Shown: positions 22,884 through 36,730 of the stretch, piece after piece
How the letters are laid out: each line of letters starts with the position of its first letter
Numbering within the stretch: the first letter of the stretch is position 1
Assembly (NCBI GenBank): GCA_023416745.1
Contig: JAEZHF010000051.1
Location: 140 to 64,139 of the forward strand
DNA length: 64,000 nucleotides
From: Bacillota bacterium
GTDB taxonomy: Bacteria > Bacillota > Clostridia > Christensenellales > SZUA-584
Reading direction: 5' to 3'
Program-made: the position numbers and the translations under genes
Notes under the pieces: model-generated
Database searches by the model: none
What the model saw: the letters and a program-made list of their open reading frames with translations, nothing else
Told to the model about the DNA's origin: nothing

Positions 22884-24068
22884 CTATTTCAGCGCCTGCA
22901 CGAATTCTCTGATGCGTGCGAGGCCTTTCTCGATGTTCTCGTCTTTGACAGCATAGCTCAACCGGACGTAGTCGTCCGCACCGAATGCTGCTCCCGGGAC
23001 CACAGCGGTCAAAGTATGCTTCAGCAGCGCTTCGGAAAACTCCAGCGAACTGTTAATCGGCACGCCGTCGTAAGCCTTCCCCTTGATACCCGAAATGTTC
23101 ATCATCACATAGAACGCGCCTCCGGGGATCTCACACGAAAGTCCGTCAATATCGTTGATCAGGCCGCAGAGTAATTTGCGACGTCTGTCAAAAGCCTTCT
23201 TCATGCTCGCGACAGCGTCCTGCGGGCCGCTGAGCGCCTCGATGCTGGCATACTGAGCTATGGAGTTCGGGTTGGACGCCGCGTGCGATTGATAAGCGTC
23301 CATCACTTTGGCAAGCTGTCGCGTACTGGCCGTATAACCAATGCGCCATCCTGTCATCGCATACGTCTTGGACATGCCATTAACGATGATGGTATTATCC
23401 TTGATAGCAGGGCCGAGAGATGCGACGCTCACATGCTCGCCCTCGTAGATGAGCTCGTCGTAGATTTCGTCCGATACAATGAAAATATCTGCGTCCAGTG
23501 CGACCGCGGCGATCTCCTCAAGCTCCTTGCGGGTATAGACTGTGCCGCACGGATTAGACGGTGTGTTGAGTATCAGCGCTTTGGTTTTGGATGTTAGCGC
23601 GCCGCGGATATCGTCTGCCGTCGCTTTGAGCGACGGGTCCGTCTGCACGAACACGGGAACGCCATCTGACATTCGCACCAGTTCAGGGTACGTCACCCAA
23701 TATGGCACGGGAATGATTACCTCGTCACCAGGGTTGAGTATGGCTGCGAATATATTAAAAAGCGAATGCTTCGCGCCGTTGGATACAACAATATCGTCCG
23801 CCTCATAAAGCAGACTGTATTTGCTTTGCAGGTGTGCAGCGATTGCGCTTTTCAGCTCCGGCATGCCCGCGGCGGGTGTGTACCGTGTCAATCCCATATC
23901 CAGCGCCTTTTTTGCTGCTTCTTTAATGTTGTCGGGAGTATCAAAATCCGGCTCACCGGCACCGAATCCGATCACGTCACGGCCCTCTTTTTTGAGTTTC
24001 TTCGCCATGGCGTCAATGCTTAGTGTCATAGAAGGCGTAATGCCCAGCGCCTTATTCGATAATTCCAT
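22884..24068 (-). CDS. class I PLP-dependent aminotransferase (aspartate aminotransferase-like)
   Basis: The NGMSKTYAMTGWR PLP-lysine region is typical of AspAT Ib. Start trimmed to MELSNK behind GGAGG. Confidence 0.85.
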   Translation of the reverse strand: MELSNKALGITPSMTLSIDAMAKKLKKEGRDVIGFGAGEPDFDTPDNIKEAAKKALDMGLTRYTPAAGMPELKSAIAAHLQSKYSLLYEADDIVVSNGAKHSLFNIFAAILNPGDEVIIPVPYWVTYPELVRMSDGVPVFVQTDPSLKATADDIRGALTSKTKALILNTPSNPCGTVYTRKELEEIAAVALDADIFIVSDEIYDELIYEGEHVSVASLGPAIKDNTIIVNGMSKTYAMTGWRIGYTASTRQLAKVMDAYQSHAASNPNSIAQYASIEALSGPQDAVASMKKAFDRRRKLLCGLINDIDGLSCEIPGGAFYVMMNISGIKGKAYDGVPINSSLEFSEALLKHTLTAVVPGAAFGADDYVRLSYAVKDENIEKGLARIREFVQALK

Positions 24069-24280
24069 CTCAGGCCTCCGTTGGTCAAAGATATTATGCA
24101 TTATAAGTTTTCAAAAACTTCATTGTGAGGATATGTTAACACATTATATGATACATTTCAACTGTCTATCCTTATTATTTTGCATGTTACCAAAAAAAAT
24201 ATTGCATTCTAATCATTTAACCCTCCCTTTTCACATCTTCTACATGTTTTCAATATATTGATACCAAAGAGGTGGATCAT

Positions 24281-24538
24281 ATGAAAAATCTAATTGTACT
24301 TTACGGAGATAACTGTGCATACTGTAAGAAGGCGAAAATGCTGATTGGCCGGGCTCTTGAAAAAGACCCCAGATACTCTTCTATTATTATTAAATATATA
24401 AAGGACGACAGTGCAGAAGGCAAATATCTGGCACACAAATATATACCTGCATTTTATATTGAAGGTAAGCGGTTTTTTGAAGGAAATCCTGATATGGACG
24501 ACATAAAGCGGATGCTCTCAGTATGTCTGGCAGAGTAA
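24281..24538 (+). CDS. small glutaredoxin/thioredoxin-fold protein
   Basis: 85 aa with a CAYC redox motif after a beta-strand (LIVLYGDN) and a cis-Pro region (YIPAFYIEG). ATG lies 5 nt after AAAGAGGTGG. Confidence 0.55.
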   Translation: MKNLIVLYGDNCAYCKKAKMLIGRALEKDPRYSSIIIKYIKDDSAEGKYLAHKYIPAFYIEGKRFFEGNPDMDDIKRMLSVCLAE

Positions 24539-24701
24539 CAAATAGAACCTTTCAATAGGAAGCCATATTGAAATGCTGGATAATTACTTGACTGTCCCAG
24601 ACATTTTCAAATATATGTTACGAAAATAATAAATAGCGGTGTTATTGCTTGATTATTGGCAATATTCATAATAAAATGACCAAAAAGAGGAGGACAAGCT
24701 T

Positions 24702-25565
24702 ATGCAGAATTTTGTTATCGGAGCATGTTCCACATGTGATTTGCCGTTGGATTACGTTCAGAAAAACGAGATCGAAATCGTTAAGTTATCCTATATGCTT
24801 GACCACAAGGAATATAAAGATGGCGATATGGATGCAAAAGTCTTCTTTAACTTGGAGCGAGAAGGCTATATGCCAACCACATCGCAAGTGACTCCGGAAG
24901 AATACCTCCAGGTTTTTGACAGAATTCTATCATCAGATCAGGACCTCCTTTACATCGCATTCTCGTCCGGTCTCTCTGGCAGCTGCAACAGCGCGAAGAT
25001 AGCGGCTGAGGAAATGCGGGCCAAATACCCCGGTCGCAAGCTCTACGTTGTGGATTCGCTCTGCGCGTCGCTAGGTCAGGGGTTGCTGGTGGATTACGCC
25101 GTCAAAATGCGCGCGGCCGGAAAGTCTATAGATGATACTTACAAATGGGTGGAAGCTAACAAGCTGGGCCTCAACCACTGGTTCACTGTGGACAGTCTGA
25201 ACCATCTGAAACGCGGTGGCCGCGTGACCGGCGCTGCGGCTTTCGTCGGCAATCTGCTGCACATCAAGCCCGTGCTTAATGTTGACTACGAAGGACATCT
25301 TATTCCTCGGGAAAAGGAGCAGGGCCGTAAAAAGGCTCTCCGCTGCCTCGTTGATAAGATGAGCGAATATATATATAAACCCGAGGGTCAAACCGTATTC
25401 ATCAGCCATGGCGATGACATTGAGGCTGCCGAGAAGGTGGCTGCTATGGTTAAGGAACGCTTCCCGGAGATCGGCGAAGTGATGGTCAGCATGCTCGGTA
25501 CCGTGATCGGTGCGCATTCCGGCCCTGGCACCATCGCGCTGTTCTTTATGGGAAAAACCCGCTGA
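24702..25565 (+). CDS. DegV family fatty-acid-binding protein
   Basis: 287 aa. A DegV-like N-terminus (CSTCDLP...TSQVTPEEY) and typical length. AGGAGG SD. Confidence 0.8.
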   Translation: MQNFVIGACSTCDLPLDYVQKNEIEIVKLSYMLDHKEYKDGDMDAKVFFNLEREGYMPTTSQVTPEEYLQVFDRILSSDQDLLYIAFSSGLSGSCNSAKIAAEEMRAKYPGRKLYVVDSLCASLGQGLLVDYAVKMRAAGKSIDDTYKWVEANKLGLNHWFTVDSLNHLKRGGRVTGAAAFVGNLLHIKPVLNVDYEGHLIPREKEQGRKKALRCLVDKMSEYIYKPEGQTVFISHGDDIEAAEKVAAMVKERFPEIGEVMVSMLGTVIGAHSGPGTIALFFMGKTR

Positions 25566-25580
25566 CAATTTGTGCACCCT

Positions 25581-25606
25581 GCCCTGCCTTGCGGCGGGGC
25601 TTTTTT
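25581..25606 (+). terminator. intrinsic terminator after degV
   Basis: GCCCTGCC-TTGC-GGCGGGGC followed by TTTTTT. Confidence 0.8.
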
Positions 25607-25664
25607 CATATTCGTTCAACTTGTCTCATATAAATATGTATATTATTTTTACGGAGGAATTCTG

Positions 25665-26558
25665 ATGAGATACGGACGAATGATGTCGAAACCGCCGCAG
25701 AAACATCGAAGATTTAGCAGCCTGATCATTGTCGCCGTCATACTTGGCATCACCGCCTACTTCGTGGGTGCGGGAGCTGCGGGCGGTTGGCTGGCTGAAA
25801 ACGTGATCAATCCTGTTTTTAATAGTGGAACAGGCAAGGCGGAAGAGCCCTCTCCTTCAATGACCACGGCTGTATCCCCTGCCTCTACCGTGGAAACTTC
25901 CAATCTGACGGAAACACCCGCCAGTGCCCAGACTGAGGAGCAGATTACCGCACAGAGCATCACGCTCTACACACTGCAGGTTGGTGCCTTTTCCGATGAG
26001 GCCAATGCCCAGCAGGCGGCTAAAGAGGTTATCGGTCGGGGCGGTGCTGGTTTTGTTGCGTACGACGGCAGTCTTTACCGTGTGCTGGTAGCCGGATACA
26101 CATCTGAAAACGATGCCAAGTCCGTGAAAGCTGATCTTGAATCACAAGGCATTTCGACAACTGTGTTCAAATTAGAATCGGGCGCACTTGAATTTAAAAT
26201 CGGTGCAGAAAAACAGCAAATCGATGCAATCAAGGGCTGCTTTGACGTGGTGCCAGCCACGGTATCCGAACTTCAGCAGATCATCTACGCGTCTGATAAG
26301 GGAGAAAAGGTAGATGATCGGGTGACCGCGCTGAAAGCCGGAGCAGCAGAAGTCACCACAAGCCTCAAAGCCATCGTCTCTACGGAATCAGAAGCGATGT
26401 CCAATCTAGTCGCATTTATGGACAGCTTTTGTGAATTGCTTGGCAGCATACACAAATCCTCCGATGTATCAAGTGTGGCTTTTTCTGCAGAATTGAAGTA
26501 TAATCTAATTAGTGTGGTCGTGGATTACTCCACATTTTTTAAAGAATTAAGCAGTTGA
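25665..26558 (+). CDS. membrane-anchored SPOR-domain protein
   Basis: Start at MRYGRMM behind GGAGG. One TM segment and a SPOR-like repeat (YTLQVGAFSDEANAQQAA...YRVLVAGYTSENDAKSVKADL). Confidence 0.65.
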   Translation: MRYGRMMSKPPQKHRRFSSLIIVAVILGITAYFVGAGAAGGWLAENVINPVFNSGTGKAEEPSPSMTTAVSPASTVETSNLTETPASAQTEEQITAQSITLYTLQVGAFSDEANAQQAAKEVIGRGGAGFVAYDGSLYRVLVAGYTSENDAKSVKADLESQGISTTVFKLESGALEFKIGAEKQQIDAIKGCFDVVPATVSELQQIIYASDKGEKVDDRVTALKAGAAEVTTSLKAIVSTESEAMSNLVAFMDSFCELLGSIHKSSDVSSVAFSAELKYNLISVVVDYSTFFKELSS

Positions 26559-26573
26559 TATTCGGAGGTTACA

Positions 26574-26921
26574 ATGACAATAGCTCAGGCTGCAGCTATC
26601 CTGGACTGCCAGGTGGTTTGCGGCAACGAAAATTTGGACAAGACCCTTTCATCCGGTTGCGGCGCGGATCTGATGAGCGACGTGCTTGCATTCGCAAAGG
26701 ACAATTGCATTTTGCTGACTGGTATGGTCAATCCGCATGTTGTGCGCACAGCCGAAATGCTCGATGTTCCCTGTATCGTTTTTGTCCGTGGAAAAAAACC
26801 GGCGAACGACGTCGTTGAACTGGCAATGCAGACAGGCGCAACGCTGCTGACCTGCGACTGCACGCTCTACGAGGCCTGCGGACGTCTGTATTCACAGGGC
26901 TTGCCGCCTTGCGGCCGGTAA
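26574..26921 (+). CDS. DRTGG-like single-domain protein (paralogue 1)
   Basis: 115 aa with a GGAGG SD. Aligns colinearly with the 28667..29008 product. The DRTGG assignment comes from sequence recollection. Confidence 0.55.
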   Translation: MTIAQAAAILDCQVVCGNENLDKTLSSGCGADLMSDVLAFAKDNCILLTGMVNPHVVRTAEMLDVPCIVFVRGKKPANDVVELAMQTGATLLTCDCTLYEACGRLYSQGLPPCGR

Positions 26922-26927
26922 TCGCTT

Positions 26928-27347
26928 ATGTCAGACGGCTTTAAAGAGACCTTTGCAATTACAGCACAGGATTTTGCTTCAGCCGGGGAAGCATCAGCCA
27001 AAATCAAAAGTGTTTTACGTATGATAGGTATCGATCCCGCGTTAACGCGACGCGTGACCATTGCCGCCTATGAAGCGGAACTGAATATGATTATCCACAG
27101 CTTTGGCGGTGAGATGACGGTGGAAATCGATACCGGATCCATTCACCTTAATTGTGTGGACACCGGGCCAGGTATTGCCGATATCGGTCTCGCAATGCAG
27201 GAAGGATTTTCCACTGCATCTTCCGATGTCAGAATGATGGGCTTCGGTGCTGGTATGGGCCTCCCCAACATCAAAAAGAACAGCGACAATATGGATATCC
27301 GATCCGATTCCGGCGGGACAAGTTTAAGTTTGCGATTTGACATTTAG
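26928..27347 (+). CDS. stand-alone GHKL ATPase, RsbW/SpoIIAB-like serine kinase / anti-sigma-type
   Basis: 139 aa with an N box (EAELNMIIH), G1 (DTGPGI) and G2 (GFGAGMG). Confidence 0.65.
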   Translation: MSDGFKETFAITAQDFASAGEASAKIKSVLRMIGIDPALTRRVTIAAYEAELNMIIHSFGGEMTVEIDTGSIHLNCVDTGPGIADIGLAMQEGFSTASSDVRMMGFGAGMGLPNIKKNSDNMDIRSDSGGTSLSLRFDI

Positions 27348-27359
27348 CAGAGGGATAAC

Positions 27360-28670
27360 ATGAACACTTATTTCCATTCCGTGCGGCTCGACCGTGACAA
27401 GTGCAAAGGCTGCACCAACTGCATCAAGCACTGCCCCACCGAGGCCATCCGTGTACGCGGCGGTAAGGCGCAGATTATCGCTGAGCGCTGTATAGATTGC
27501 GGCGAATGCATCCGTGTCTGTCCGTATCACGCCAAAATTGCGTACACTGATCCGTTTTCCGATATCGGTCGGTTTAAGTACAAAATCGCGCTGCCCGCGC
27601 CATCGCTGTACGGACAGTTCAAGAACCTGTCCAGCATTGACCGCGTGGTGATGGGACTTAAGCTGATGGGCTTCGACGATGTGTACGAGGTGGCTCGCGG
27701 CGCCGACATCATCAGCTGCGCCATTCGCCAGCACATTGAAGGCAAGGAAAACCTCCCTGTCATATCTTCCGCGTGTCCCGCTATCGTCCGGCTGATACAG
27801 GTGCGTTTCCCCAATCTTATCGACAACATCATTGATCTTCAGTCTCCGATGGAGATGGCTGCTATAGCTGCCAAGCGCGAATATGCCGAGAAGCACGGTG
27901 TTAGTATTAATGAAATCGGGGTTTTCTTTATCACTCCCTGTCCAGCCAAGATGACGAGCATTAAGAATCCTTACGGCATAGAAAAAAGCAATGTAAACGG
28001 TGCTTTTTCCGTTATCGACATCTACGGGCTGCTCGCCGGACAGCTTAAAAAACCGGGGCTTGTCGTCACCGAAGGCGCAACGGCTTCCGTTTTTGGCGTA
28101 GGCTGGGCCAACTCAGGTGGTGAGGCCGCTGCAGCGGGCCTACAAAACTCTTTAGCTGTGGACGGTATCAGCAACGTGATCAAAGTGCTGGAAGAAATCG
28201 AGAACATGAAACTCAACGATCTGCAGTTTTTTGAGGGGCTGGCGTGCCCGGGCGGCTGTGTAGGTGGGCCTCTTACGTTTGAAAATCCGTTCGTCGCGCG
28301 TTCGCGTATACGAACGCTGTCCTCCAAGATCAAGAATCAAAAACCGTCCTGCGAATATGCCCAAGGCTACATCGATGACGGCTCCGTACTGTTCAGCCAG
28401 CCCATTGAGTCCCGCCCTGTTATGAAGATTGACGTAGACATGCTGACGGCTATGCGCAAGCTGGAACAGATAGAAGAGATAGCTGCCCGTCTGCCGGGGT
28501 TGGACTGCGGGTCATGCGGCAGTCCCTCCTGCCATGCCATGGCCGAGGATATCGTCCGCGGGGATGCCAAGGAAATGGACTGCATATTCAAGCTGCGCGA
28601 TAAAGTGACCAGCCTTGCTGAACAGATGGTGGAGCTGACAGGCCGTGATAAGAAGGAGCCGACAAGATGA
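27360..28670 (+). CDS. HydS-like putative sensory [FeFe]-hydrogenase
   Basis: Two N-terminal CxxCxxCxxxCP ferredoxin motifs. The H-domain has variant motifs SSACP / TPCPAKMTS / EGLACPGGCVGGP. The C-terminus carries Cx2Cx4Cx16C. Confidence 0.75.
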   Translation: MNTYFHSVRLDRDKCKGCTNCIKHCPTEAIRVRGGKAQIIAERCIDCGECIRVCPYHAKIAYTDPFSDIGRFKYKIALPAPSLYGQFKNLSSIDRVVMGLKLMGFDDVYEVARGADIISCAIRQHIEGKENLPVISSACPAIVRLIQVRFPNLIDNIIDLQSPMEMAAIAAKREYAEKHGVSINEIGVFFITPCPAKMTSIKNPYGIEKSNVNGAFSVIDIYGLLAGQLKKPGLVVTEGATASVFGVGWANSGGEAAAAGLQNSLAVDGISNVIKVLEEIENMKLNDLQFFEGLACPGGCVGGPLTFENPFVARSRIRTLSSKIKNQKPSCEYAQGYIDDGSVLFSQPIESRPVMKIDVDMLTAMRKLEQIEEIAARLPGLDCGSCGSPSCHAMAEDIVRGDAKEMDCIFKLRDKVTSLAEQMVELTGRDKKEPTR

Positions 28671-29008
28671 CGATACAGCAACTGATCGAAAAAACCGGCT
28701 GGAAGGCGCTAACCGCTGTGCAGGATGCGGAAATAACGTCGGGCTATGTGTGCGACATGCTGAGTTGGGTGATGGCGCGTGCGCAATTTGGCACCGTCTG
28801 GATCACCGTGCAGGCACACGTGAATGTAGTGGCGGTTGCCGCACTGACAGGATGCGCATGCGTGGTGATCTCCGACAACATTGCGGTATCCGAGGAAACG
28901 CATTTCGCGGCTCGCGACAAGGATGTGTGCATCATCAGCGCTCCTTGCACGTCGTACGGCGCGGCGGTGGCGCTGCACGAACTAGGCGTTGGTGAAGTCG
29001 CGCGATGA
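28667..29008 (+). CDS. DRTGG-like single-domain protein (paralogue 2)
   Basis: 113 aa. ATGA overlap with the upstream gene and an AAGGAG SD. Colinear with the 26574..26921 product. Confidence 0.5.
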   Translation: MTIQQLIEKTGWKALTAVQDAEITSGYVCDMLSWVMARAQFGTVWITVQAHVNVVAVAALTGCACVVISDNIAVSEETHFAARDKDVCIISAPCTSYGAAVALHELGVGEVAR

Positions 29009-29700
29009 TGGACAGATTTTACGATCTGCATATCCATTCCTGCTTGTCGCCGTGCGCTTCAGACGATATGACACTATCCAATATCGCCGGTATGGCCTCC
29101 ATCAAGGGGCTGTCTCTCATCTCTCTGACAGATCATAATTCGGGTCATAATCTGAAAGCTATGGAGAAGGCTGCTTCGGAGTTTGGCCTTATTTTCATTC
29201 CGGGCATTGAGGTAACGACTGTCGAAGAAGTCCATGTCCTCACATATTTCAAAAATACTCATGCAGCCGTTGAATTTGGCGAAATGCTATATGACTCATT
29301 GCCGGATATCTCCAACCGGCCGGACATATTCGGGAGGCAGAATATTATGGACGAGAACGATGAGGCAGCAGGCGAGCTCGATAAGCTGCTGCTGCAGGCC
29401 ACGCCGTTTTCTATCAACGAGCTTGCGACGCTGGCCTTCAAGGCTGGCGGCTGTGCCGTTCCCGCTCACATCAACAGGGATTCGTTCTCTGTGCTCGCGA
29501 ACCTCGGATTTATGCCGCCCGGCCTTTTCCGCACCGCGGAGGTGGCAACCGGCCTTCCCTGCCCCGCGCTGGATCCATCCATATACATTTTCCACTCTTC
29601 AGACGCACATAACCTAGGAGACATATCAGAGCCTGCTTACACCTTAAATGCTATCCATAATTCGTCAGCATTCGTTGATTTTGTTAATCATTCGCGGTGA
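29005..29700 (+). CDS. PHP-family phosphoesterase
   Basis: Motifs DLHIHS, LTDHNS, GIEV, PAHINR and HSSDAH. ATGA overlap with the upstream gene. Confidence 0.7.
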   Translation: MMDRFYDLHIHSCLSPCASDDMTLSNIAGMASIKGLSLISLTDHNSGHNLKAMEKAASEFGLIFIPGIEVTTVEEVHVLTYFKNTHAAVEFGEMLYDSLPDISNRPDIFGRQNIMDENDEAAGELDKLLLQATPFSINELATLAFKAGGCAVPAHINRDSFSVLANLGFMPPGLFRTAEVATGLPCPALDPSIYIFHSSDAHNLGDISEPAYTLNAIHNSSAFVDFVNHSR

Positions 29701-29762
29701 TACTGCTTGTTTTTCCTAACATTCGTCAAAATCTGAGCGTAACATAAAAGTTTATTATTTTT

Positions 29763-29791
29763 TTCACAAATAGTATGTGCATCAGTATAAT
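29763..29791 (+). promoter_or_regulatory. sigma-A type promoter of the hydC-hydA operon
   Basis: TTCACA-17 nt-TATAAT, about 80 nt upstream of hydC. Confidence 0.55.
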
Positions 29792-29873
29792 TATGTGATA
29801 AAATAACCGCTGGATGTTTTGTTACTTTTTTATCAAAGTCAAATATACACCTGACAGGAGGGAGATTTAAGTT

Positions 29874-30350
29874 ATGACCACAGCAGTGGATGATAAAGCT
29901 TTACGAGAAGAACTCATCAGCTTTATCGAAGAGCAGAAAAAAAAACCAGGCCCGTTGATGCCCATCATGCAAAAAGCTCAGAGCCTTTTCGGCGCACTCA
30001 CAATTGACGTGCAGGAGCTTATCTCGGAGCAGTTGGGTATCCCCATGAGCGATGTTTACGGCGTCGCCACATTTTATTCACAGTTTGCATTAGAGCCGAA
30101 AGGAGAGCACATCGTCAGCGTCTGTATGGGTACGGCATGTTACGTCCGGAACATTGAGAAGGTTCTTGACCGACTGGCCGAAGAGTTGGGAGTGAACCCC
30201 GGTGAAACCACGCCAGACAGAAAGTTTACGCTTGAACCCACTCGCTGCCTTGGATGCTGCGGCCTCGCCCCCGTCATCATGATCGACGATCAGGTGTATG
30301 GCCGGCTGACCCCATCCGATGTACCCGACATACTGGCGAAGTACAAGTAG
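29874..30350 (+). CDS. hydC: bifurcating [FeFe]-hydrogenase gamma subunit (NuoE-like 2Fe-2S)
   Basis: NuoE fold with CMGTAC...CLGCCGLAP cysteines and an AGGAGGGAG SD. Confidence 0.85.
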   Translation: MTTAVDDKALREELISFIEEQKKKPGPLMPIMQKAQSLFGALTIDVQELISEQLGIPMSDVYGVATFYSQFALEPKGEHIVSVCMGTACYVRNIEKVLDRLAEELGVNPGETTPDRKFTLEPTRCLGCCGLAPVIMIDDQVYGRLTPSDVPDILAKYK

Positions 30351-30353
30351 GTC

Positions 30354-30905
30354 ATGCGGGACATTTCTTTGCACATACTAGATATTGCCGAGAACTCGCT
30401 TCGCGCGGGCGCCAGCCTGATACGGATCGATATTACGGCAGATATATCGGCAGACAAGCTTACCGTATTAATTGAGGACAACGGCTGCGGTATGAGCAAT
30501 GAAATGCTGGAGCGGGTGAGAAGCCCCTTTGCCACCACGCGTACGACGCGCAAGGTTGGTCTGGGTATCCCGCTGTTTGCAGCTGGGTGTGAATCCACAG
30601 GCGGACATTTGGACATCGAATCGGCCCCCGGCAATGGCACAAAACTGACCGCCGTATATGGCTACAGTCATATCGACAGACCGCCGCTGGGCAGCATAGC
30701 TGAAACGATTGCGGCGCTGGCACTGGCAAACCCGGAAATCGATTTTGTCTTCATGGCAAAGAAGGACGAGGCTTTCGAGTTTGACACCCGGGCCATCAAA
30801 ACCACGCTGGACGGCGTGGCGATTACGGAGCCGGCTGTGATGTCTTTTATCCGGGAATATTTAGAAGAAGGAACCATGCAGGTTTTTGGAGGACATGATA
30901 TATGA
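30354..30905 (+). CDS. GHKL-type ATP-binding protein embedded in the hydrogenase operon
   Basis: 183 aa with an N box (IAENSLRAG), G1 (DNGCGM) and G2 (GLGIP). There is no obvious sensor or DHp domain. Confidence 0.6.
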   Translation: MRDISLHILDIAENSLRAGASLIRIDITADISADKLTVLIEDNGCGMSNEMLERVRSPFATTRTTRKVGLGIPLFAAGCESTGGHLDIESAPGNGTKLTAVYGYSHIDRPPLGSIAETIAALALANPEIDFVFMAKKDEAFEFDTRAIKTTLDGVAITEPAVMSFIREYLEEGTMQVFGGHDI

Positions 30906-31279
30906 AATCTTTAAAAGAATTAGAAGCGATCAGAAACAAGACACTGGCTCAGATAGATATACGCAAGAAGGGTGAAGGCACCCGTATTGTGGTGGGTATG
31001 GCTACTTGCGGCATCGCCGCGGGCGCACGTCCCGTTCTCTCCGCGTTTGTAGAAGAAGTTGCCAAGCGCAACCTCTCTGGTGTTACCGTCTCGCAGACAG
31101 GATGCATCGGAGCTTGCCGCCTGGAACCGATGGTCGAGGTGTTCACACCCGATGCCGACAAGGTAACTTACGTGAAGATTGATCCTGCCATGGTGAGCCG
31201 CATCGTCGCCGAACACATCGTAAACGGCAACCCGGTGACGGAATACACCATCGGCTACAGCGAAGAGAACAACAAGTAA
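30902..31279 (+). CDS. thioredoxin-like [2Fe-2S] ferredoxin
   Basis: 125 aa with cysteines in MATCGIAAGA...CIGACRLEP. ATGA overlap with the upstream gene. Confidence 0.7.
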   Translation: MKSLKELEAIRNKTLAQIDIRKKGEGTRIVVGMATCGIAAGARPVLSAFVEEVAKRNLSGVTVSQTGCIGACRLEPMVEVFTPDADKVTYVKIDPAMVSRIVAEHIVNGNPVTEYTIGYSEENNK

Positions 31280-31298
31280 TTAGGAGGAACGCATTATC

Positions 31299-33089
31299 AT
31301 GGATATTTTCCGTTCACACGTCCTTGTTTGCGGCGGCACGGGCTGCACTTCGTCCGATTCGCCTAAGATCATGGATAAATTTACAGAAGAAATCAGTAAA
31401 AACGGCCTGGATAAAGAGGTCAAGGTCGTCCGCACCGGCTGCTTCGGCCTTTGCGAAGCGGGCCCGATCGTGATCGTATATCCCGAAGGCAGCTTCTATT
31501 CGCACGTGAAGGTGGAAGACGTGGCCGAGATCGTCAGCGAGCACCTCTTAAAGGGTCGCATCGTTCACCGCCTGCTGTATAAGGAAGACACCGGCGATGT
31601 CGAGATGTCGCTCGATAACATCGGCTTCTACAAAAAGCAAAAGCGCGTCGCCTTGCGCAACTGCGGCGTGATCGACCCTGAGCGCATCGAGGAATACATC
31701 GCATTTGACGGCTATAAGGCGCTGGGCACCTGCCTTGGCGAGTATACGCCCGAGCAGGTCATTGAGACCGTTAAGGCGAGTGGTCTGCGCGGCAGAGGCG
31801 GCGGCGGCTTCCCCACCGGAATGAAGTGGCAGTTTTGCGCCAAGGAAACCAGCAGCCAGAAATATGTGATCTGCAACGCAGACGAAGGCGATCCGGGCGC
31901 GTTCATGGACAGAAGCGTGCTTGAGGGCGACCCGCATGCGGTGCTGGAAGCGATGGCCATAGCGGGCTACGCGATCGGCGCGTCAATTGGATATATCTAC
32001 GTTCGCGCGGAATACCCTATTGCCGTCAAGCGGCTGGAAATCGCTATCGGGCAGGCACGCGAGCTGGGCCTGCTGGGCAAGAATATATTTGAATCCGGCT
32101 TTGACTTCGACATCGAGATCCGTCTCGGCGCTGGCGCGTTCGTGTGCGGCGAGGAGATGGCGCTGATCCACTCCATTGAAGGCAATCGCGGTGAGCCGAC
32201 GCCCAAGCCCCCGTTCCCGGCGCAGAAAGGTTTGTTCGGCAAGCCGACGATCATCAACAACGTTGAAACATTTGCGAACATTCCGCAGATAATACTCAAT
32301 GGACCCGAATGGTTTGCGTCCATGGGTACCGAGAAGAGCAAGGGCACAAAAGTGTTCGCGCTGGGCGGCAAAATCAACAACACCGGTCTTGTCGAAATAC
32401 CGATGGGCACCACGCTGCGCGAAATCATATTCGAGATCGGCGGCGGCATCCCGGGCGGCAAGGAGTTCAAGGCGGCGCAGACGGGCGGCCCGTCGGGCGG
32501 CTGCATACCGACCAGCCACCTCGACACCCCCATCGACTACGACTCGCTGACTGCCATCGGCTCAATGATGGGCAGCGGCGGCCTGATCGTCATGGACGAA
32601 GACAACTGCATGGGGGACGTGGCGCGCTACTTCCTCGACTTCACTGTGGACGAATCGTGCGGCAAGTGCCCGCCGTGCCGTATTGGCACCAAGCGTATGC
32701 TGGAGATACTCGAGCGCATCGTATCGGGACGCGGTGAAGAAGGCGATATTGAGAAGCTGATATTGATGGGCGAGAACATCAAGAATGCGTCTCTCTGCGG
32801 TCTTGGCAAGACGGCTCCCAACCCGGTGCTGTCCACCATCAAGTATTTCCGCGACGAATACGAAGCGCACATCCGCGACAAGAAGTGTCCGGCCGGCCAC
32901 TGCAAGGCGCTGCTCAACTACATTATTGACAAGTCGAAGTGTATCGGCTGCGGCGCGTGTGCCAAGGTCTGCCCCACCAACGCAATATCCGGCAAGATCA
33001 AGGAACCTTTCGAGGTCGACCAGAGCAAGTGCATCAAGTGCGGTGCGTGCATGGCGCGCTGCAAGTTCAACGCGATCGAGAAGAAGTAA
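31299..33089 (+). CDS. hydB: bifurcating [FeFe]-hydrogenase beta subunit (NuoF-like, FMN/NAD(H))
   Basis: N-terminal 2Fe-2S domain, a GRGGGGFPTGMKW FMN site, a CGKCPPCR 4Fe-4S site, and two C-terminal CxxCxxCxxxC motifs. Confidence 0.9.
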   Translation: MDIFRSHVLVCGGTGCTSSDSPKIMDKFTEEISKNGLDKEVKVVRTGCFGLCEAGPIVIVYPEGSFYSHVKVEDVAEIVSEHLLKGRIVHRLLYKEDTGDVEMSLDNIGFYKKQKRVALRNCGVIDPERIEEYIAFDGYKALGTCLGEYTPEQVIETVKASGLRGRGGGGFPTGMKWQFCAKETSSQKYVICNADEGDPGAFMDRSVLEGDPHAVLEAMAIAGYAIGASIGYIYVRAEYPIAVKRLEIAIGQARELGLLGKNIFESGFDFDIEIRLGAGAFVCGEEMALIHSIEGNRGEPTPKPPFPAQKGLFGKPTIINNVETFANIPQIILNGPEWFASMGTEKSKGTKVFALGGKINNTGLVEIPMGTTLREIIFEIGGGIPGGKEFKAAQTGGPSGGCIPTSHLDTPIDYDSLTAIGSMMGSGGLIVMDEDNCMGDVARYFLDFTVDESCGKCPPCRIGTKRMLEILERIVSGRGEEGDIEKLILMGENIKNASLCGLGKTAPNPVLSTIKYFRDEYEAHIRDKKCPAGHCKALLNYIIDKSKCIGCGACAKVCPTNAISGKIKEPFEVDQSKCIKCGACMARCKFNAIEKK

Positions 33090-33107
33090 GAAAGGAGCAG
33101 ACAGATT

Positions 33108-34847
33108 ATGGTATCTTTAACGATAGACGGAGTCAAAGTGGAAGTGCCGAACGGTACGTCGGTGCTGGAAGCCGCGCGCAGCGTCGGTGTCCGCATCCCC
33201 ACATTGTGTTATTTAAAAGGCGTCAACGCCATCGGTGCGTGCCGCATGTGTCTGGTTGAAATGGTCGAAGGCGGACGTGGCCTGCAGGCGGCTTGCGTGC
33301 TGCCGGCGGCAAACGGCATGGTAATTTCATCAAACTCCAAGGCTGTTCAGGACGCGCGCCGCGTGAATCTGGAACTGATACTCTCCAATCACGACAAGCG
33401 ATGCCTCTCCTGCGTACGCAACCGCAGCTGTGAGCTGCAGCAGATATGCGAAGAACTCAATATCGAGGACGTTCCCTACGAGGGAGAAGGCTTCGACCGT
33501 CCGCTGGACACGGGTTCCGCGTCCGTCGTGCGCGACCCCAACAAGTGCATACTGTGCCGCCGCTGTGTCGCGGTTTGCGGTAACGTTCAGAAGATCGGCG
33601 CTGTGGGCGCTACCCAGCGGGGCTTCAAGACCATCGTGGAGCCGGTGTTCGGTAAGTCGCTCAAGGATGTGCCTTGTGTGAACTGCGGCCAGTGCATCAC
33701 CGCCTGCCCCGTCGGTGCGCTGACAGAGCGCAGCGAGATCAATAATGTTTGGGAAGCGCTGCATGACAAGACCAAGCATGTCGTCGTTCAGACTGCCCCC
33801 GCTGTGCGGTTCGGCCTCGGCGAAGAGTTTGGTATTCCGGTAGGCAGCAGCGTCACCGGCAAGATGGCCACGGCGCTTAAGCGGCTTGGCTTTGATAAGA
33901 TATTCGACGTTGACTTTTCCGCTGACCTTACCATTATGGAAGAAGGGACGGAACTGCTGGGCCGCATCAAGAACGGCGGCAAGCTGCCGATGATCACGTC
34001 GTGCAGCCCCGGCTGGATAAAATACTGTGAGCACTTCTTCCCGGATTTCCTGGAGAATCTCTCGACCTGCAAGTCCCCTCACCAAATGGGCGGCGCGATT
34101 ATCAAGTCGTATTACGCTGAAAAGTTCGGTATCGATCCGAAGAGCATCTATGTGGTGTCCATCATGCCGTGCACAGCGAAGAAGTTTGAGAAGGAACGCG
34201 ACGAGATGGCAGTCAACGGTCTCAGAGATGTGGACGCCGTGCTGACAACGCGTGAGCTGGCCCGCATGATCAAGCAGGCCAACATCGACTTTGCACGTTT
34301 GCCCGAGAGCGACTTTGACCGGGTTCTGGGAGAATCAACCGGGGCGGCTGTCATATTCGGCGCAACGGGCGGCGTTATGGAAGCGGCACTGAGAACAGTG
34401 GCAGACATTCTGTCCGGTCAGGATCTTAAGGATATCGACTACGAATGTGTGCGCGGCATCGACGGCGTCAAAGAAGCCACACTGAACATCGCCGGCATGG
34501 ATATCAAGGTTGCGGTGGCCAGCGGCACAGGCAATGCCAAGAAACTTCTGGAAGCAGTGCGCTCCGGCGAGAAATTCTATCACTTCATCGAAGTGATGGG
34601 TTGCCCCGGCGGCTGTGTGACGGGCGGCGGTCAGCCTATCGTCTCCGCGCAGGATAAACTGGATTATAATCCGTATGTGCTGCGCGCCAAGGCGACCTAT
34701 GCTGAAGATGCGGGCAAGCCCAAGCGCAAGTCCCACGAGAACGAGGAGATCAAATTACTGTACAAAGAGTTTTTGGGTGAGCCCAACGGCCATAAAACAC
34801 ACGAGCTGTTGCACACACACTATCATGTTCGCCCCAAATACCAATAA
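33108..34847 (+). CDS. hydA: [FeFe]-hydrogenase catalytic subunit (CpI-like M3 architecture)
   Basis: 2Fe-2S, His-ligated 4Fe-4S and 2x4Fe-4S N-terminal domains. H-cluster motifs are TSCSPGW (variant), MPCTAKKFE and EVMGCPGGCVTGGGQP. Confidence 0.9.
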   Translation: MVSLTIDGVKVEVPNGTSVLEAARSVGVRIPTLCYLKGVNAIGACRMCLVEMVEGGRGLQAACVLPAANGMVISSNSKAVQDARRVNLELILSNHDKRCLSCVRNRSCELQQICEELNIEDVPYEGEGFDRPLDTGSASVVRDPNKCILCRRCVAVCGNVQKIGAVGATQRGFKTIVEPVFGKSLKDVPCVNCGQCITACPVGALTERSEINNVWEALHDKTKHVVVQTAPAVRFGLGEEFGIPVGSSVTGKMATALKRLGFDKIFDVDFSADLTIMEEGTELLGRIKNGGKLPMITSCSPGWIKYCEHFFPDFLENLSTCKSPHQMGGAIIKSYYAEKFGIDPKSIYVVSIMPCTAKKFEKERDEMAVNGLRDVDAVLTTRELARMIKQANIDFARLPESDFDRVLGESTGAAVIFGATGGVMEAALRTVADILSGQDLKDIDYECVRGIDGVKEATLNIAGMDIKVAVASGTGNAKKLLEAVRSGEKFYHFIEVMGCPGGCVTGGGQPIVSAQDKLDYNPYVLRAKATYAEDAGKPKRKSHENEEIKLLYKEFLGEPNGHKTHELLHTHYHVRPKYQ

Positions 34848-34876
34848 GATATAACCGTAATCCTTACATAATGAAC

Positions 34877-34920
34877 GAGAAACGGCAGAGAGCACCAAGC
34901 CCTCTGCCGTTTCTCTTTGT
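34877..34920 (+). terminator. intrinsic terminator after hydA
   Basis: Perfect 14-bp inverted repeat GAGAAACGGCAGAG-11 nt-CTCTGCCGTTTCTC followed by TTTGT. Confidence 0.85.
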
Positions 34921-34960
34921 ATGGTTGCTGTCAATATATCCTAATATATTCCAGCCTGCT

Positions 34961-35431
34961 CTATGCCCAGTCCTTGCATACGTCCACCCAGTCAACGCAG
35001 GCCGAGTGGATTTCCAGCTCACCGATGTTGAGTTCGATAGCGCTGTTGCCGCTCCCGCAGGCCGGGAAAACCGTCTCAAACCGCTTCAGAGACTCATCCA
35101 AATACACCGGCACCCCTTCCCGTACGGCGAACGGGCACACTCCGCCCACCGCATGTCCAACCATATCCATCGCCTCATCCGGCGTTAACATTTTTGCCTT
35201 TATGCCAAACCTTGCCCGGTATTTTGCATTATCTACCCGAGTGTCGCCCGCCGTTACAACCAGTATGGCCTGACCGCCGACATTGAAGGACAGCGTTTTT
35301 GCTATTCTTTTCGGCTCGCAGCCCAGCGCGGCGGCAGCCAGCTCCACAGTCGCGCTCGACACATCAAACTCCTGTATGCGGCCAGCCATATTGTACTGAG
35401 CGAAATATTCTCTGACTTTTTCTATTGCCAT
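34961..35431 (-). CDS. YbaK/EbsC-type aminoacyl-tRNA editing domain protein
   Basis: 156 aa. YbaK-like sequence (KTLSF...GGVCPF). Confidence 0.7.
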   Translation of the reverse strand: MAIEKVREYFAQYNMAGRIQEFDVSSATVELAAAALGCEPKRIAKTLSFNVGGQAILVVTAGDTRVDNAKYRARFGIKAKMLTPDEAMDMVGHAVGGVCPFAVREGVPVYLDESLKRFETVFPACGSGNSAIELNIGELEIHSACVDWVDVCKDWA

Positions 35432-35455
35432 GGTTGACCTCCTGATATCTCGTGT

Positions 35456-36673: not shown

Positions 36674-36730
36674 ATGAAGTCTCCTCCCTGTTGAGTTAAA
36701 ATATACAAACGTCTTAGAGACGTTCATTAC

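What the first reader, a model, noticed from the sequence alone, without database searches (positions are those of the whole stretch)
27360..28670. HydS-like protein keeps the H-cluster cysteines but lacks the proton-relay Cys and carries a C-terminal Cx2Cx4Cx16C site
Seen: there are two N-terminal 4Fe-4S ferredoxin motifs. The compact H-domain motifs differ from the canonical forms. L1 reads SSACP (nt 27765-27779) where TSCCP is expected. L2 reads TPCPAKMTS (27933-27959) where MPCxxKxxE is expected. L3 reads EGLACPGGCVGGP (28233-28271) where ExMxCxxGCxxGGGQ is expected. The four Cys that would bind the [4Fe-4S]H/2Fe site are retained (C139, C194, C296, C300), as is the Lys. The Cys equivalent to the CpI C299 proton relay is Ala. 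The L2 Glu and the L3 Met are also replaced. A further C383-x2-C-x4-C-x16-C408 motif (28506-28583) follows. Established knowledge: loss of the proton pathway with retention of the H-cluster ligands is the hallmark of putative sensory (non-catalytic) [FeFe]-hydrogenases. The C-terminal four-Cys motif is what I recall for the M2e / group D type. Inference: this protein is a sensor, not an H2-turnover enzyme.
Basis: partly seen in the sequence, partly recalled or inferred. Interest (0 to 1): 0.6.

Follow-up and report, generated by a model that had tools for sequence, protein, structure and literature searches.

The report
Group D sensory-type [FeFe]-hydrogenase HydS
This gene encodes an ordinary member of an already described class of slow, probably hydrogen-sensing [FeFe]-hydrogenases (group D, "M2e"), and the only less-explored point is that it sits in a conserved five-gene cassette that may be the class's unknown signalling route.

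Summary
ORF 27360-28670 (+, 436 aa) has two N-terminal 4Fe-4S motifs and a compact H-domain with SSACP / TPCPAKMTS / EGLACPGGCVGGP. It also has a C-terminal C383x2Cx4Cx16C408 site (Pfam FeS, PF04060).

This is the published definition of the M2e subclass, or phylogenetic group D, of [FeFe]-hydrogenases. The protein is 57% identical to the characterised type enzyme TamHydS and only 24% identical to the group A HydA in the same window. It has no PAS domain. It keeps the group-D-specific alternative proton path (S252, E255, D268, E292). It lies upstream of a HydABC-type (bifurcating-type) hydrogenase operon, as TamHydS does.

"Sensor" is the field's working hypothesis and is unproven. "Not a turnover enzyme" is too strong, because TamHydS turns over H2 about 1000-fold more slowly than group A enzymes.

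Beyond the finding, hydS is the centre of a conserved cassette: DRTGG, SpoIIAB-like ATPase, HydS, DRTGG, PHP. The ATPase is adjacent in 76 of 77 related loci. Natural fusions of HydS with DRTGG or with the ATPase occur in other genomes. This points to a testable signalling complex that I did not find described in the searched literature.

Novelty: already known class. Interest: low to moderate.

The parts
26574..26921 (+). DRTGG1: small DRTGG-domain protein (115 aa), first gene of the cassette
   Evidence: Pfam DRTGG at 3.5e-5, just below the gathering score. Found directly upstream of the ATPase in 72 of 74 related loci. Conserved motifs are AC..D.MSDV, TGL.N and RGK.P. DRTGG-HydS fusions exist.
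26928..27347 (+). HATP1: SpoIIAB-like histidine-kinase-type ATPase (139 aa)
   Evidence: Pfam HATPase_c_2 at 3.1e-10. NCBIfam anti-sigma F factor model at 3.8e-9, below cut-off. PDB anti-sigma F factor structures at 3e-4. N-box, G1 and G2 ATP-binding motifs conserved in 77 orthologues. Adjacent to hydS in 76 of 77 loci. A HATPase-HydS fusion of 607 aa is seen in at least 5 assemblies.
27360..28670 (+). hydS: group D (M2e) [FeFe]-hydrogenase homologue, 436 aa (the finding)
27381..27533 (+). N-terminal F-domain with two CxxCxxCxxxCP 4Fe-4S motifs (aa 8-58)
   Evidence: Pfam Fer4 families. All 8 Cys conserved.
27585..28271 (+). Compact H-domain (aa 76-304). L1 is SSACP (27765-27779), L2 is TPCPAKMTS (27933-27959), L3 is EGLACPGGCVGGP (28233-28271).
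   Evidence: Pfam PF02906 at 2.7e-34. Motif positions. AF2 model has pLDDT 88.4. Foldseek best matches are [FeFe]-hydrogenases with query-normalised TM 0.60-0.67.
28113..28235 (+). Group-D-type alternative proton-path residues: S252 (28113-28115), E255 (28122-28124), D268 (28161-28163), E292 (28233-28235)
   Evidence: They sit in motifs identical to TamHydS (WANSGGEA, VDGI, FFEGLAC). Conserved in 114-118 of 118 homologues. The pathway is defined in PMC10407848.
28491..28589 (+). C-terminal 4Fe-4S domain (aa 378-410), LPGLDCGSCGSPSCHAMAEDIVRGDAKEMDC
   Evidence: Pfam FeS PF04060 at 8.6e-13. Cys, D382, E396, D397 and D407 conserved. These are the same conserved charged residues reported for 70 group D enzymes (PMC13104023).
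28667..29008 (+). DRTGG2: second small DRTGG-like protein (113 aa); its start overlaps the hydS stop (ATGA)
   Evidence: Pfam DRTGG at 5.4e-3. Paralogue of DRTGG1 at 23% identity, E 2e-4. Downstream of hydS in 64 of 77 loci. HydS-DRTGG fusions exist.
29005..29700 (+). PHP-domain metallophosphoesterase (231 aa); its start overlaps the DRTGG2 stop
   Evidence: Pfam PHP at 1.6e-5. NCBIfam PHP-type phosphatase and metallohydrolase models at 5e-11 to 3e-8, below cut-offs. Metal motifs HxH, DHN, E..H, PAH and SDAH conserved in 57 orthologues. Present in 61 of 74 loci.
29763..29791 (+). Promoter-like site (TTCACA-17-TATAAT, 11 of 12 matches) in the PHP-hydC gap
   Evidence: This is a consensus match only, not evidence of function.
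29874..30350 (+). hydC (NuoE-like 2Fe-2S subunit)
   Evidence: Pfam 2Fe-2S_thioredx at 4.4e-51; NCBIfam NuoE/HoxE.
30354..30905 (+). HATP2: second histidine-kinase-like ATPase (183 aa) inside the hydABC operon
   Evidence: Pfam HATPase_c at 8.8e-14. Co-occurs with hydC and hydB in related loci.
30902..31279 (+). Small thioredoxin-like 2Fe-2S ferredoxin (125 aa)
31299..33089 (+). hydB (NuoF-like FMN/NADH subunit)
   Evidence: Complex1_51K at 3.7e-47; nuoF_fam at 1e-150.
33108..34847 (+). hydA: catalytic group A (A6, NADH-dependent) [FeFe]-hydrogenase
   Evidence: NCBIfam NF040763 scores 898 bits against a cut-off of 765. Pfam Fe_hyd_lg_C at 8e-102 plus Fe_hyd_SSU.
34877..34915 (.). 17-bp-stem hairpin just after the hydA stop, terminator-like

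Best explanation
The gene encodes an orthologue of HydS, the group D (M2e) putative sensory [FeFe]-hydrogenase.

Shown here from sequence: it has binding sites for four [4Fe-4S] clusters (two N-terminal, one C-terminal RnfB-type, one in the H-cluster). It has all four H-cluster cysteines and the conserved Lys. The group A proton relay is replaced (C299 to A138, with non-protonatable or different residues at the other relay positions). The alternative Glu/Ser/Asp path typical of group D is intact.

Taken from experiments on the 57%-identical TamHydS: such a protein accepts the [2Fe] subcluster, reacts with H2 at a Km of about 0.1 mM, holds a stable one-electron-reduced Hred state, turns over about 1000-fold more slowly than group A enzymes, and changes secondary structure on H2 exposure. 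Its C-terminal cluster stays oxidised under H2.

Inferred: in this Clostridia-class spore-former (closest named relatives Christensenellales), HydS reports H2 pressure by a conformational change rather than by bulk catalysis. The signal passes to the co-encoded proteins DRTGG1, a SpoIIAB-like ATPase/kinase, DRTGG2 and a PHP phosphoesterase, with which HydS forms a complex. The output adjusts expression or activity of the H2-producing or H2-consuming HydABC enzyme encoded just downstream.
For: 57% identity, E 2e-170, over 430 aa to TamHydS, against 24% to the window's own group A HydA. Domain order is Fer4x2, Fe_hyd_lg_C, FeS, with no PAS. Diagnostic group D residues are all present and conserved in 118 homologues, matching the published definitions. 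Scores are below the curated cut-offs for group A (113 vs 406 bits) and B1 (155 vs 450 bits). The AF2 model is confident (pLDDT 88.4, pTM 0.87) and matches [FeFe]-hydrogenase folds. The gene lies upstream of hydC-HATPase-fdx-hydB-hydA, an order repeated in 38 of 69 related loci. The ATPase is adjacent in 76 of 77 loci, DRTGG1 in 72 of 74, DRTGG2 in 64 of 77 and PHP in 61 of 74. The cassette genes overlap or are 6-12 nt apart. Natural HydS fusions with DRTGG (N- or C-terminal) and with the HATPase recur at full length in several independent assemblies. ATP-binding motifs of the ATPase and metal motifs of the PHP protein are conserved.
Against: No group D enzyme has been shown to sense H2 in vivo, and the label is 'putative' in every paper read. 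TamHydS is a working, if slow, bidirectional catalyst. Its C-terminal cluster does not respond to H2 (PMC13104023), so the signalling step is unknown. The cassette has no DNA-binding protein and no STAS, PP2C or PAS element. In 31 of 69 loci it is not followed by hydABC, and the genes that follow are unrelated. No hydEFG maturase genes were found among the 37 window ORFs scanned, which cover most but not all ORFs of 300 aa or more. I did not place the protein in a curated tree with group B, C and E-G references.
Confidence: 0.72

Rival explanations
1. It is a slow but genuinely metabolic hydrogenase or electron-transfer module with no regulatory role. For example, it could be a low-flux, CO- and O2-tolerant back-up enzyme, or an accessory redox partner of HydABC.
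For: TamHydS catalyses both directions and has a conserved alternative proton path whose mutation lowers activity (PMC10407848). That path is intact here. There are three accessory clusters suited to electron transfer. The gene neighbours hydABC.
Against: Specific activity of the type enzyme is about 0.1 U/mg. The cassette is unlinked to hydABC in 31 of 69 loci. The cryo-EM HydABC complexes are described as HydA, HydB and HydC, with no HydS-like subunit mentioned in the passages read (PMC10021017). The constant partners are ATPase, DRTGG and PHP proteins rather than redox enzymes, and the fusions are with those signalling-type domains.
Confidence: 0.15
2. It is a sensor, but of cellular redox state, O2 or CO rather than H2, using its Fe-S clusters or an altered H-cluster as the receptor.
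For: TamHydS reacts with O2 to give a stable mononuclear Hair species and is unusually CO tolerant. The C-terminal cluster is reduced only by strong reductants, not by H2. About half of the cassettes are not next to a hydrogenase operon.
Against: All H-cluster ligands and pocket residues are strictly conserved in the family. That conservation is hard to explain unless H2 chemistry at the [2Fe] site matters. Low Km for H2 and a long-lived Hred state fit H2 detection.
Confidence: 0.09
3. It is a hydrogenase-like Fe-S protein that never receives the [2Fe] subcluster (Nar1/NARF-like), or a truncated group C (PAS) HydS.
For: Several canonical group A motif residues are replaced. No hydEFG genes were found among the window ORFs scanned.
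Against: The 57%-identical TamHydS assembles an H-cluster spontaneously with [2Fe]adt. K197, the APS motif and all four Cys are kept. The ORF is full length, and about 410-460 aa is the norm for most of the best 150 cluster representatives. No PAS domain was found in any of the 10 clearly longer relatives that were scanned.
Confidence: 0.03

Closest known systems
TamHydS, Thermoanaerobacter mathranii HydS (WP_013150113), the characterised group D / M2e [FeFe]-hydrogenase
   Same: 57% identity over 430 aa. Same length and domain order. L1 (SSACP) is identical, as are the WANSGGEA and FFEGLAC motifs. The C-terminal LPGLDCGSCGSP...AEDIV...DCIF pattern is the same, and so are the conserved charged residues around the clusters. 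Thermoanaerobacteraceae relatives L021 and L052 share the same cassette and the downstream hydABC, and TamHydS is reported upstream of a bifurcating hydrogenase next to an HK-like ATPase.
   Different: T192 replaces S191; both residues are allowed in M2e. The two vestigial group A relay residues that TamHydS retains (E122, K126) are Q124 and E127 here, so every group A relay position is replaced. The organism is a mesophile-type member of the Clostridia whose closest named relatives are Christensenellales, not a thermophile. The TamHydS sequence came from a machine-read PDF (434 of 435 aa, with a few reading errors), so identity is approximate.
TmHydS, Thermotoga maritima HydS (group C / M2f putative sensory [FeFe]-hydrogenase)
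   Same: Two N-terminal clusters, a compact H-domain, C299 replaced by Ala, a C-terminal Cx2Cx4Cx16C cluster, low turnover and a stabilised Hred state.
   Different: TmHydS has a C-terminal PAS domain, which is absent here. The positions of M353 and M497 are Gly and Ser in TmHydS, and Thr and Leu here. The E255/S252/D268 path is reported as exclusive to group D.
Group A prototypical and bifurcating [FeFe]-hydrogenases (CpI; HydA of HydABC, including the window's own HydA at 33108-34847)
   Same: Same H-cluster ligands and Lys, same F-domain ferredoxin fold, and structural similarity (TMq 0.60-0.67).
   Different: Only 19-24% identity. The Cys relay and the E279/E282/S319/R286 path are missing. 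The H-domain is about 100 residues shorter and has no small-subunit-like C-terminus (PF02256). Scores fall below the NCBIfam group A cut-off.
Regulatory [NiFe]-hydrogenases (HoxBC / HupUV with the HoxJ kinase)
   Same: They are a functional analogy only: a slow, inhibitor-tolerant hydrogenase coupled to a kinase that controls expression of the metabolic hydrogenases (discussed in PMC8163306).
   Different: They have an unrelated fold and metal site. They signal through a PAS-containing histidine kinase and a response regulator, and neither is present in this cassette.
SpoIIAA / SpoIIAB / SpoIIE-type partner-switching modules
   Same: HATP1 is SpoIIAB-like in size and motifs. The gene order 'small protein, then kinase, then target' resembles spoIIAA-spoIIAB-sigF. 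A phosphoesterase is co-encoded.
   Different: There is no STAS protein (DRTGG proteins take its place), no PP2C phosphatase (PHP instead) and no sigma factor. Phosphorylation of DRTGG is pure inference.

Membership tests
Group D (M2e) [FeFe]-hydrogenase | H-domain with the four H-cluster Cys ligands and the conserved Lys | tested here: met
   PF02906 at 2.7e-34; C139, C194, C296, C300 and K197 present; invariant in 118 homologues.
Group D (M2e) [FeFe]-hydrogenase | [quoted passage not shown] | tested here: met
   C15/18/21/25 and C44/47/50/54; Fer4 families at about 1e-10.
Group D (M2e) [FeFe]-hydrogenase | C-terminal Cx2Cx4Cx16C [4Fe-4S] motif, with no PAS domain after it | tested here: met
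   C383/386/391/408; PF04060 at 8.6e-13; no PAS hit at E<=0.01; the protein ends 28 aa after C408.
Group D (M2e) [FeFe]-hydrogenase | CpI C299 not conserved (Ala), M353 replaced by Ser or Thr, group A proton path absent | tested here: met
   A138, T192 and L294. By pairwise alignment to TamHydS (F119, E122, K126, L157, which the literature equates to CpI E279, E282, R286, S319) the other relay positions are A121, Q124, E127 and I158. The gap placement around 121-127 is uncertain.
Group D (M2e) [FeFe]-hydrogenase | Group-D-exclusive alternative proton path (TamHydS E252, E289, S249, D265) | tested here: met
   E255, E292, S252 and D268 sit in identical local motifs. Conserved in 114-118 of 118 homologues.
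Group D (M2e) [FeFe]-hydrogenase | Conserved charged residues around the clusters (TamHydS R30, R32, K35, K58, D378, E392, D393, D403) | tested here: met
   R31, R33, K36, K59, D382, E396, D397 and D407. The list is from PMC13104023.
Group D (M2e) [FeFe]-hydrogenase | Close sequence relationship to the type enzyme rather than to other groups | tested here: met
   57% identity to TamHydS, E 2e-170, against 24% to the group A HydA. Most of the best 150 cluster representatives are M2e-sized, and the 10 clearly longer ones scanned carry DRTGG or HATPase extensions (one has no Pfam hit in its extension), none PAS.
Group D (M2e) [FeFe]-hydrogenase | Placement inside group D in a curated phylogeny or HydDB classifier with group A-G references | not tested
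   No curated reference set for groups B, C and E-G was available in the tools.
Group D (M2e) [FeFe]-hydrogenase | Forms an H-cluster and shows low, bidirectional H2 turnover with a stabilised Hred state | not testable with these tools
   Known only for TamHydS (PMC8163306, PMC10407848).
Group A [FeFe]-hydrogenase | TSCCP with the proton-relay Cys, the MPCxxKxxE and ExMxCxxGCxxGGGQ motifs, and the family score cut-off | tested here: not met
   SSACP, TPCPAKMTS and EGLACPGGCVGGP. TIGR02512 scores 112.7 bits against a cut-off of 405.95. NF040763 scores 93.9 against 765.
Group B [FeFe]-hydrogenase (monomeric B1) | NCBIfam TIGR04105 family score cut-off | tested here: not met
   154.5 bits against a cut-off of 450, and only the H-domain aligns.
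Group C (M2f) PAS-linked sensory [FeFe]-hydrogenase | PAS domain after the C-terminal cluster | tested here: not met
   No PAS family in the Pfam scan. No PAS in the longer relatives.
SpoIIAB-type partner-switching module (for the cassette) | SpoIIAB/RsbW-like Ser kinase with intact ATP-binding motifs | tested here: inconclusive
   HATPase_c_2 at 3.1e-10. The spIIAB model scores 36.6 bits against a cut-off of 135. PDB anti-sigma F at 3e-4. N, G1 and G2 boxes are conserved.
SpoIIAB-type partner-switching module (for the cassette) | STAS-domain antagonist, PP2C phosphatase and sigma-factor target | tested here: not met
   The neighbours are DRTGG, DRTGG and PHP. No STAS, PP2C or sigma factor lies between 24702 and 35188.

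The most novel reading that the evidence does not exclude
The conserved cassette DRTGG1, SpoIIAB-like ATPase, HydS, DRTGG2, PHP may be the missing signal-transduction apparatus of group D hydrogenases. In this reading HydS is the H2 receptor of a partner-switching-like module. The small ATPase/kinase binds or phosphorylates the DRTGG proteins, possibly at the Ser of the conserved D-[LM]-[LM]-S motif. The PHP phosphoesterase resets them. The output acts post-translationally or through a factor encoded elsewhere. Recurrent natural fusions (HATPase-HydS, DRTGG-HydS, HydS-DRTGG) indicate a physical complex. I found no description of this module in the searched literature, and the 2026 TamHydS paper states that partners in the native host are unknown.
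Probability: 0.35. Interest if true: 0.6.

Novelty: already known. Interest (0 to 1): 0.3.

Why it matters
The protein itself is a routine member of a class with thousands of database relatives and a characterised model enzyme, so it adds no new kind of biology. Its use is practical. The hydS plus hydABC layout marks this organism as an H2-cycling fermenter that probably tunes its bifurcating-type hydrogenase to H2 pressure, which is relevant to gut and digester H2 economy.

The less explored part is the signalling route. The field has said repeatedly that it does not know how group D enzymes transmit a signal (PMC8163306, PMC13104023). The near-universal cassette and the natural fusions name concrete candidate partners that can be tested by pull-down, phosphorylation assays and genetics.

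Tried and rejected
1. Group A or B membership was rejected, because curated NCBIfam scores are far below cut-off.
2. Group C was rejected, because neither the protein nor the longer relatives that were scanned carry PAS.
3. I looked for a close solved structure. A PDB sequence search finds only group A, bifurcating and CbA5H-type enzymes at E about 1e-22 to 1e-18. Foldseek gives the same set.
4. I checked whether the gene is a fragment or pseudogene. It is not: the identical protein is called on an independent assembly, and the length is typical of the family.
5. I looked for hydEFG maturases in the window. None was found among the 37 ORFs scanned (most but not all ORFs of 300 aa or more), which are housekeeping and sporulation genes outside the hyd region.
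6. I looked for an RNA element or riboswitch in 24000-36000. There is no Rfam hit at gathering score.
7. I looked for a regulator next to the cassette, because an AraC-type neighbour is reported for TamHydS. None is present in this window or in the Thermoanaerobacteraceae loci L021 and L052. Their upstream genes are TypA, SLT and SPOR-domain proteins.
8. I asked what follows the cassette when hydABC does not. The genes are unrelated (EF-G, GGDEF-EAL, DUF3048, nitrilase, PPIase) with no common theme.
9. Literature searches for DRTGG or PHP together with hydrogenase found nothing relevant.
10. I suspected that TSCSP in HydA was a sequencing error. It is not, since 36 of 36 HydA hits in the related loci share it.
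11. The machine-read TamHydS sequence has small reading errors, so the published residue numbers were mapped by local motif rather than by index.
Full report
**1. Observation**

The window has an intact ORF at 27360-28670 on the + strand. It starts with ATG, has a GAGGG ribosome-binding site 8 nt upstream, and encodes 436 aa.
- Two CxxCxxCxxxCP ferredoxin motifs: C15-C25 and C44-C54.
- SSACP at aa 136-140 (nt 27765-27779).
- TPCPAKMTS at aa 192-200 (nt 27933-27959).
- EGLACPGGCVGGP at aa 292-304 (nt 28233-28271).
- C383-x2-C386-x4-C391-x16-C408 (nt 28506-28583).

Pfam finds Fer4 families (about 1e-10), Fe_hyd_lg_C (PF02906, aa 76-304, 2.7e-34) and the RnfB/CFeSP-type 'FeS' domain (PF04060, aa 378-410, 8.6e-13). 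It finds no PAS domain. An independent assembly carries exactly the same protein with the same gene boundaries.

**2. What it is**

The literature defines exactly this combination as the M2e subclass, or phylogenetic group D, of [FeFe]-hydrogenases. The features are two N-terminal [4Fe-4S] motifs, a C-terminal Cx2Cx4Cx16C cluster, no PAS domain, CpI C299 replaced (usually by Ala), and M353 replaced by Ser or Thr. The gene often lies in the same operon as a group A hydrogenase (PMC8163306; PMC13104023; PMC11803613). The model enzyme is TamHydS from Thermoanaerobacter mathranii.

I took the TamHydS sequence from the supplement of PMC6984386. It is a machine-read PDF giving 434 of 435 aa with a few reading errors. 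The window protein is 57% identical to it over 430 aa, E 2e-170. It is only 24% identical to the group A HydA encoded 4.4 kb downstream in the same window.

Published diagnostic residues map onto identical local motifs:

| TamHydS | Window protein | Local motif or note |
|---|---|---|
| A137 | A138 | SSACP |
| S191 | T192 | Ser or Thr allowed in M2e |
| L291 | L294 | |
| S249, E252 | S252, E255 | WANSGGEA |
| D265 | D268 | VDGI |
| E289 | E292 | FFEGLAC |

The last three rows are the alternative proton path, which PMC10407848 describes as exclusive to group D apart from the E289 glutamate. The conserved charged residues around the clusters are also all present (R31, R33, K36, K59, D382, E396, D397, D407; list).

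In an alignment of 116 database homologues plus TamHydS, all these positions are conserved in 111-118 of 118 sequences, except R33, which is Arg in 86 and Gln in 31. Curated NCBIfam models for group A and B1 score far below their cut-offs (113 vs 406 bits; 155 vs 450 bits).

An AlphaFold2 model built on 70 homologues is confident (pLDDT 88.4, pTM 0.87). Its best structural matches are [FeFe]-hydrogenases (DdHydAB, CbA5H, TmHydA, CpI; query-normalised TM 0.60-0.67, 19-21% identity). No group C or D structure appeared among the matches.

The family is large. There are more than 8000 hits at E<=1e-10 in the 90% clusters. Among 50% cluster representatives there are 7880 hits at E<=1e-3 and 514 at E<=1e-30. 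Across the best 150 representatives the C299-equivalent position is Ala, Ser, Phe, Thr and others. It is Cys in only one, and 116 of 128 keep the C-terminal four-Cys motif.

One small difference from TamHydS: the two vestigial group A relay residues that TamHydS keeps (E122, K126) are Q124 and E127 here. All five group A relay positions are therefore replaced.

**3. Surroundings**

On the + strand the genes run as follows:

| Coordinates | Gene | Size |
|---|---|---|
| 26574-26921 | DRTGG1 | 115 aa |
| 26928-27347 | HATP1, a SpoIIAB-like HATPase_c_2 protein | 139 aa |
| 27360-28670 | hydS | 436 aa |
| 28667-29008 | DRTGG2 (start overlaps the hydS stop, ATGA) | 113 aa |
| 29005-29700 | PHP phosphoesterase (start overlaps the DRTGG2 stop) | 231 aa |

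After a 173-nt gap that holds an 11-of-12 promoter-like match come the hydrogenase genes:
- hydC (NuoE-like)
- a second HATPase (183 aa)
- a small 2Fe-2S ferredoxin
- hydB (NuoF-like)
- hydA (NCBIfam 'NADH-dependent [FeFe] hydrogenase, group A6', 898 bits against a cut-off of 765)
- a strong hairpin just after the hydA stop

[quoted passage not shown] The other scanned ORFs in the window are housekeeping and sporulation genes. No hydEFG was found among them.

**4. Conservation of the context**

A scan of one genome per species returned 80 loci. They come from Christensenellales, Oscillospiraceae, Acutalibacteraceae, Thermoanaerobacteraceae and other Clostridia, with HydS 50-87% identical to the window protein. 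I used tblastn with the window's neighbour proteins and counted only loci with enough flank:

| Gene | Loci with the gene in the same position |
|---|---|
| HATP1 (ATPase) | 76 of 77 |
| DRTGG1 | 72 of 74 |
| DRTGG2 | 64 of 77 |
| PHP | 61 of 74 |
| All five cassette genes | 51 of 68 |
| hydC / hydABC directly downstream | 38 of 69 |

The counts for DRTGG2, PHP and the full cassette are lower bounds, because these are short, divergent proteins.

In the other 31 loci unrelated genes follow: EF-G, GGDEF-EAL, DUF3048, nitrilase, PPIase. So the five-gene cassette, not the hydS-hydABC pair, is the conserved unit. It contains no DNA-binding protein.

In the orthologue alignments the ATPase keeps its N, G1 and G2 ATP-binding boxes. 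The PHP protein keeps all its metal-binding motifs (HxH, DHN, E..H, PAH, SDAH). Both DRTGG paralogues (23% identical to each other) share a conserved D-[LM]-[LM]-S motif.

**5. Fusions**

Among the best 150 cluster representatives, most are about 410-460 aa. Nine of the ten clearly longer ones I scanned are HydS fused to a cassette neighbour's domain; the tenth (P0203) has no Pfam hit in its extension. None carries PAS:
- HydS-DRTGG, C-terminal: 6 representatives of 515-563 aa.
- DRTGG-HydS, N-terminal: 534 and 556 aa.
- HATPase-HydS, N-terminal: 607 aa.

The fusions are not one-off assembly errors. The 607-aa form recurs at the same length in at least five assemblies, on contigs up to 347 kb. 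The 534-aa form recurs in at least five, including an NCBI record titled 'bacterium 210820-DFI.6.37' (apparently a cultured isolate). The 563-aa form recurs in three. N-terminal fused DRTGG domains carry the DRTGG1-type DLMS motif, and C-terminal ones carry the DRTGG2-type DLLS or DMLS motif. This is Rosetta-stone evidence that HydS, the DRTGG proteins and the ATPase work as one complex.

**6. How it most likely works**

Shown here: the cofactor-binding sites, loss of the group A relay, retention of the group D path, the cassette and the fusions.

Taken from experiments on TamHydS:
- Four [4Fe-4S] clusters (16 Fe per protein) and spontaneous H-cluster formation with [2Fe]adt.
- H2 evolution of about 0.09 U/mg and H2 oxidation of about 2 U/mg.
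- Km for H2 of about 0.1 mM, a long-lived Hred state and CO tolerance.
- An H2-induced change in secondary structure.
- A C-terminal cluster that H2 does not reduce.

Inferred: HydS reports H2 pressure by a conformational change to the DRTGG, ATPase and PHP partners. These in turn adjust HydABC or other targets.

The gene order 'small protein, then SpoIIAB-like kinase, then target', together with a phosphoesterase, resembles a partner-switching module. However, the defining STAS, PP2C and sigma components are absent, so this is an analogy and not membership. A nucleotide-based mechanism is equally open. By my own recollection, not a tool result, DRTGG domains occur in nucleotide-regulated enzymes. 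The PHP protein's best NCBIfam matches include nucleotide phosphatases.

**7. Rivals**

- A slow but metabolic hydrogenase. This is possible, since the enzyme class is catalytically competent. It fits poorly with the signalling-type partners and with the fusions.
- A sensor of redox state, O2 or CO rather than H2. This is not excluded.
- A Nar1-like protein without the [2Fe] site, or a truncated group C enzyme. Both are unlikely given TamHydS biochemistry and the family-wide length.

**8. Verdict**

It is an ordinary member of an already described and experimentally characterised class, so its novelty is 'already known'. The sensor role remains a hypothesis in the field, and 'not a turnover enzyme' is too strong.

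It is the near-universal DRTGG, ATPase, HydS, DRTGG, PHP cassette and its natural fusions. These give concrete candidates for the signalling route that the TamHydS papers describe as unknown. I could not find this module described in the searchable literature, but that library is incomplete.

Noticed in passing
window 33996-34010 (HydA aa 297-301): The catalytic group A HydA has L1 = TSCSP rather than TSCCP. The residue equivalent to CpI C300, a [4Fe-4S]H ligand, is Ser, while the proton-relay Cys is kept. All 36 HydA hits in the related loci share this. The solved chain 7q4v_A also has TSCSP. A Ser ligand of this cluster is described for A. woodii HydABC (Ser301) with no effect on the H-cluster spectra (PMC10021017). 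It is therefore a known lineage trait and not an error. HydS and HydA are complementary at these two adjacent positions (A-C versus C-S).
   Followed up: yes
P0125, P0134, P0135, P0169, P0170, P0183, P0226, P0238, P0258 (relatives): Natural fusion proteins join group D HydS to a DRTGG domain (N- or C-terminal) or to the SpoIIAB-like HATPase (N-terminal). They recur at full length in several independent assemblies.
   Followed up: yes
L001-L080; counts: The five-gene cassette is followed by hydC/hydABC in only 38 of 69 loci. In the others unrelated genes follow. Some loci appear to have only the three-gene core DRTGG1-HATP1-HydS (for example L015, L036, L039, L041, L053).
   Followed up: partly
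window 30354-30905: A second histidine-kinase-like ATPase (183 aa, HATPase_c at 8.8e-14) sits inside the hydABC operon between hydC and the small 2Fe-2S ferredoxin. It co-occurs with them in nearly all of the related loci that carry hydC downstream. Its role and any link to the HydS cassette are unknown.
   Followed up: no
window 25572-26558; L052 7364-8164; L021 8425-9198: A SPOR-domain protein lies directly upstream of the cassette in this window and in many related loci. This includes the Thermoanaerobacteraceae, where TypA and an SLT transglycosylase precede it. The synteny spans orders and has no obvious functional link.
   Followed up: partly
L025, L040, L045, L051 (upstream of the cassette); L059 (upstream, minus strand): Four loci carry a second NuoE-NuoF-HydA set immediately upstream of the cassette. 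Of these, L025, L040 and L051 also have the usual set downstream; L045 ends just after hydS. L059 has a second HydS-like gene on the opposite strand.
   Followed up: no
window 35456-36727 (- strand): A flavodiiron-type protein (ODP metallo-beta-lactamase domain plus flavodoxin) is encoded convergently just after the hydA terminator hairpin. By my own knowledge such proteins usually detoxify O2 or NO. The 105-aa ORF at 34871-35188, which overlaps the hairpin, has no family hit and is probably not a gene.
   Followed up: no
P0253: One cluster representative is a 4122-aa protein with 14 separate stretches matching the HydS query at 27% identity. It could be a giant multi-hydrogenase-like protein or a mis-assembly. 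I did not examine it.
   Followed up: no
window 7351-9497 (- strand): SpoIIP and the GPR spore protease are present, so the organism is a spore-forming Firmicute. The best HydS relatives are named Christensenellales or Christensenellaceae.
   Followed up: partly
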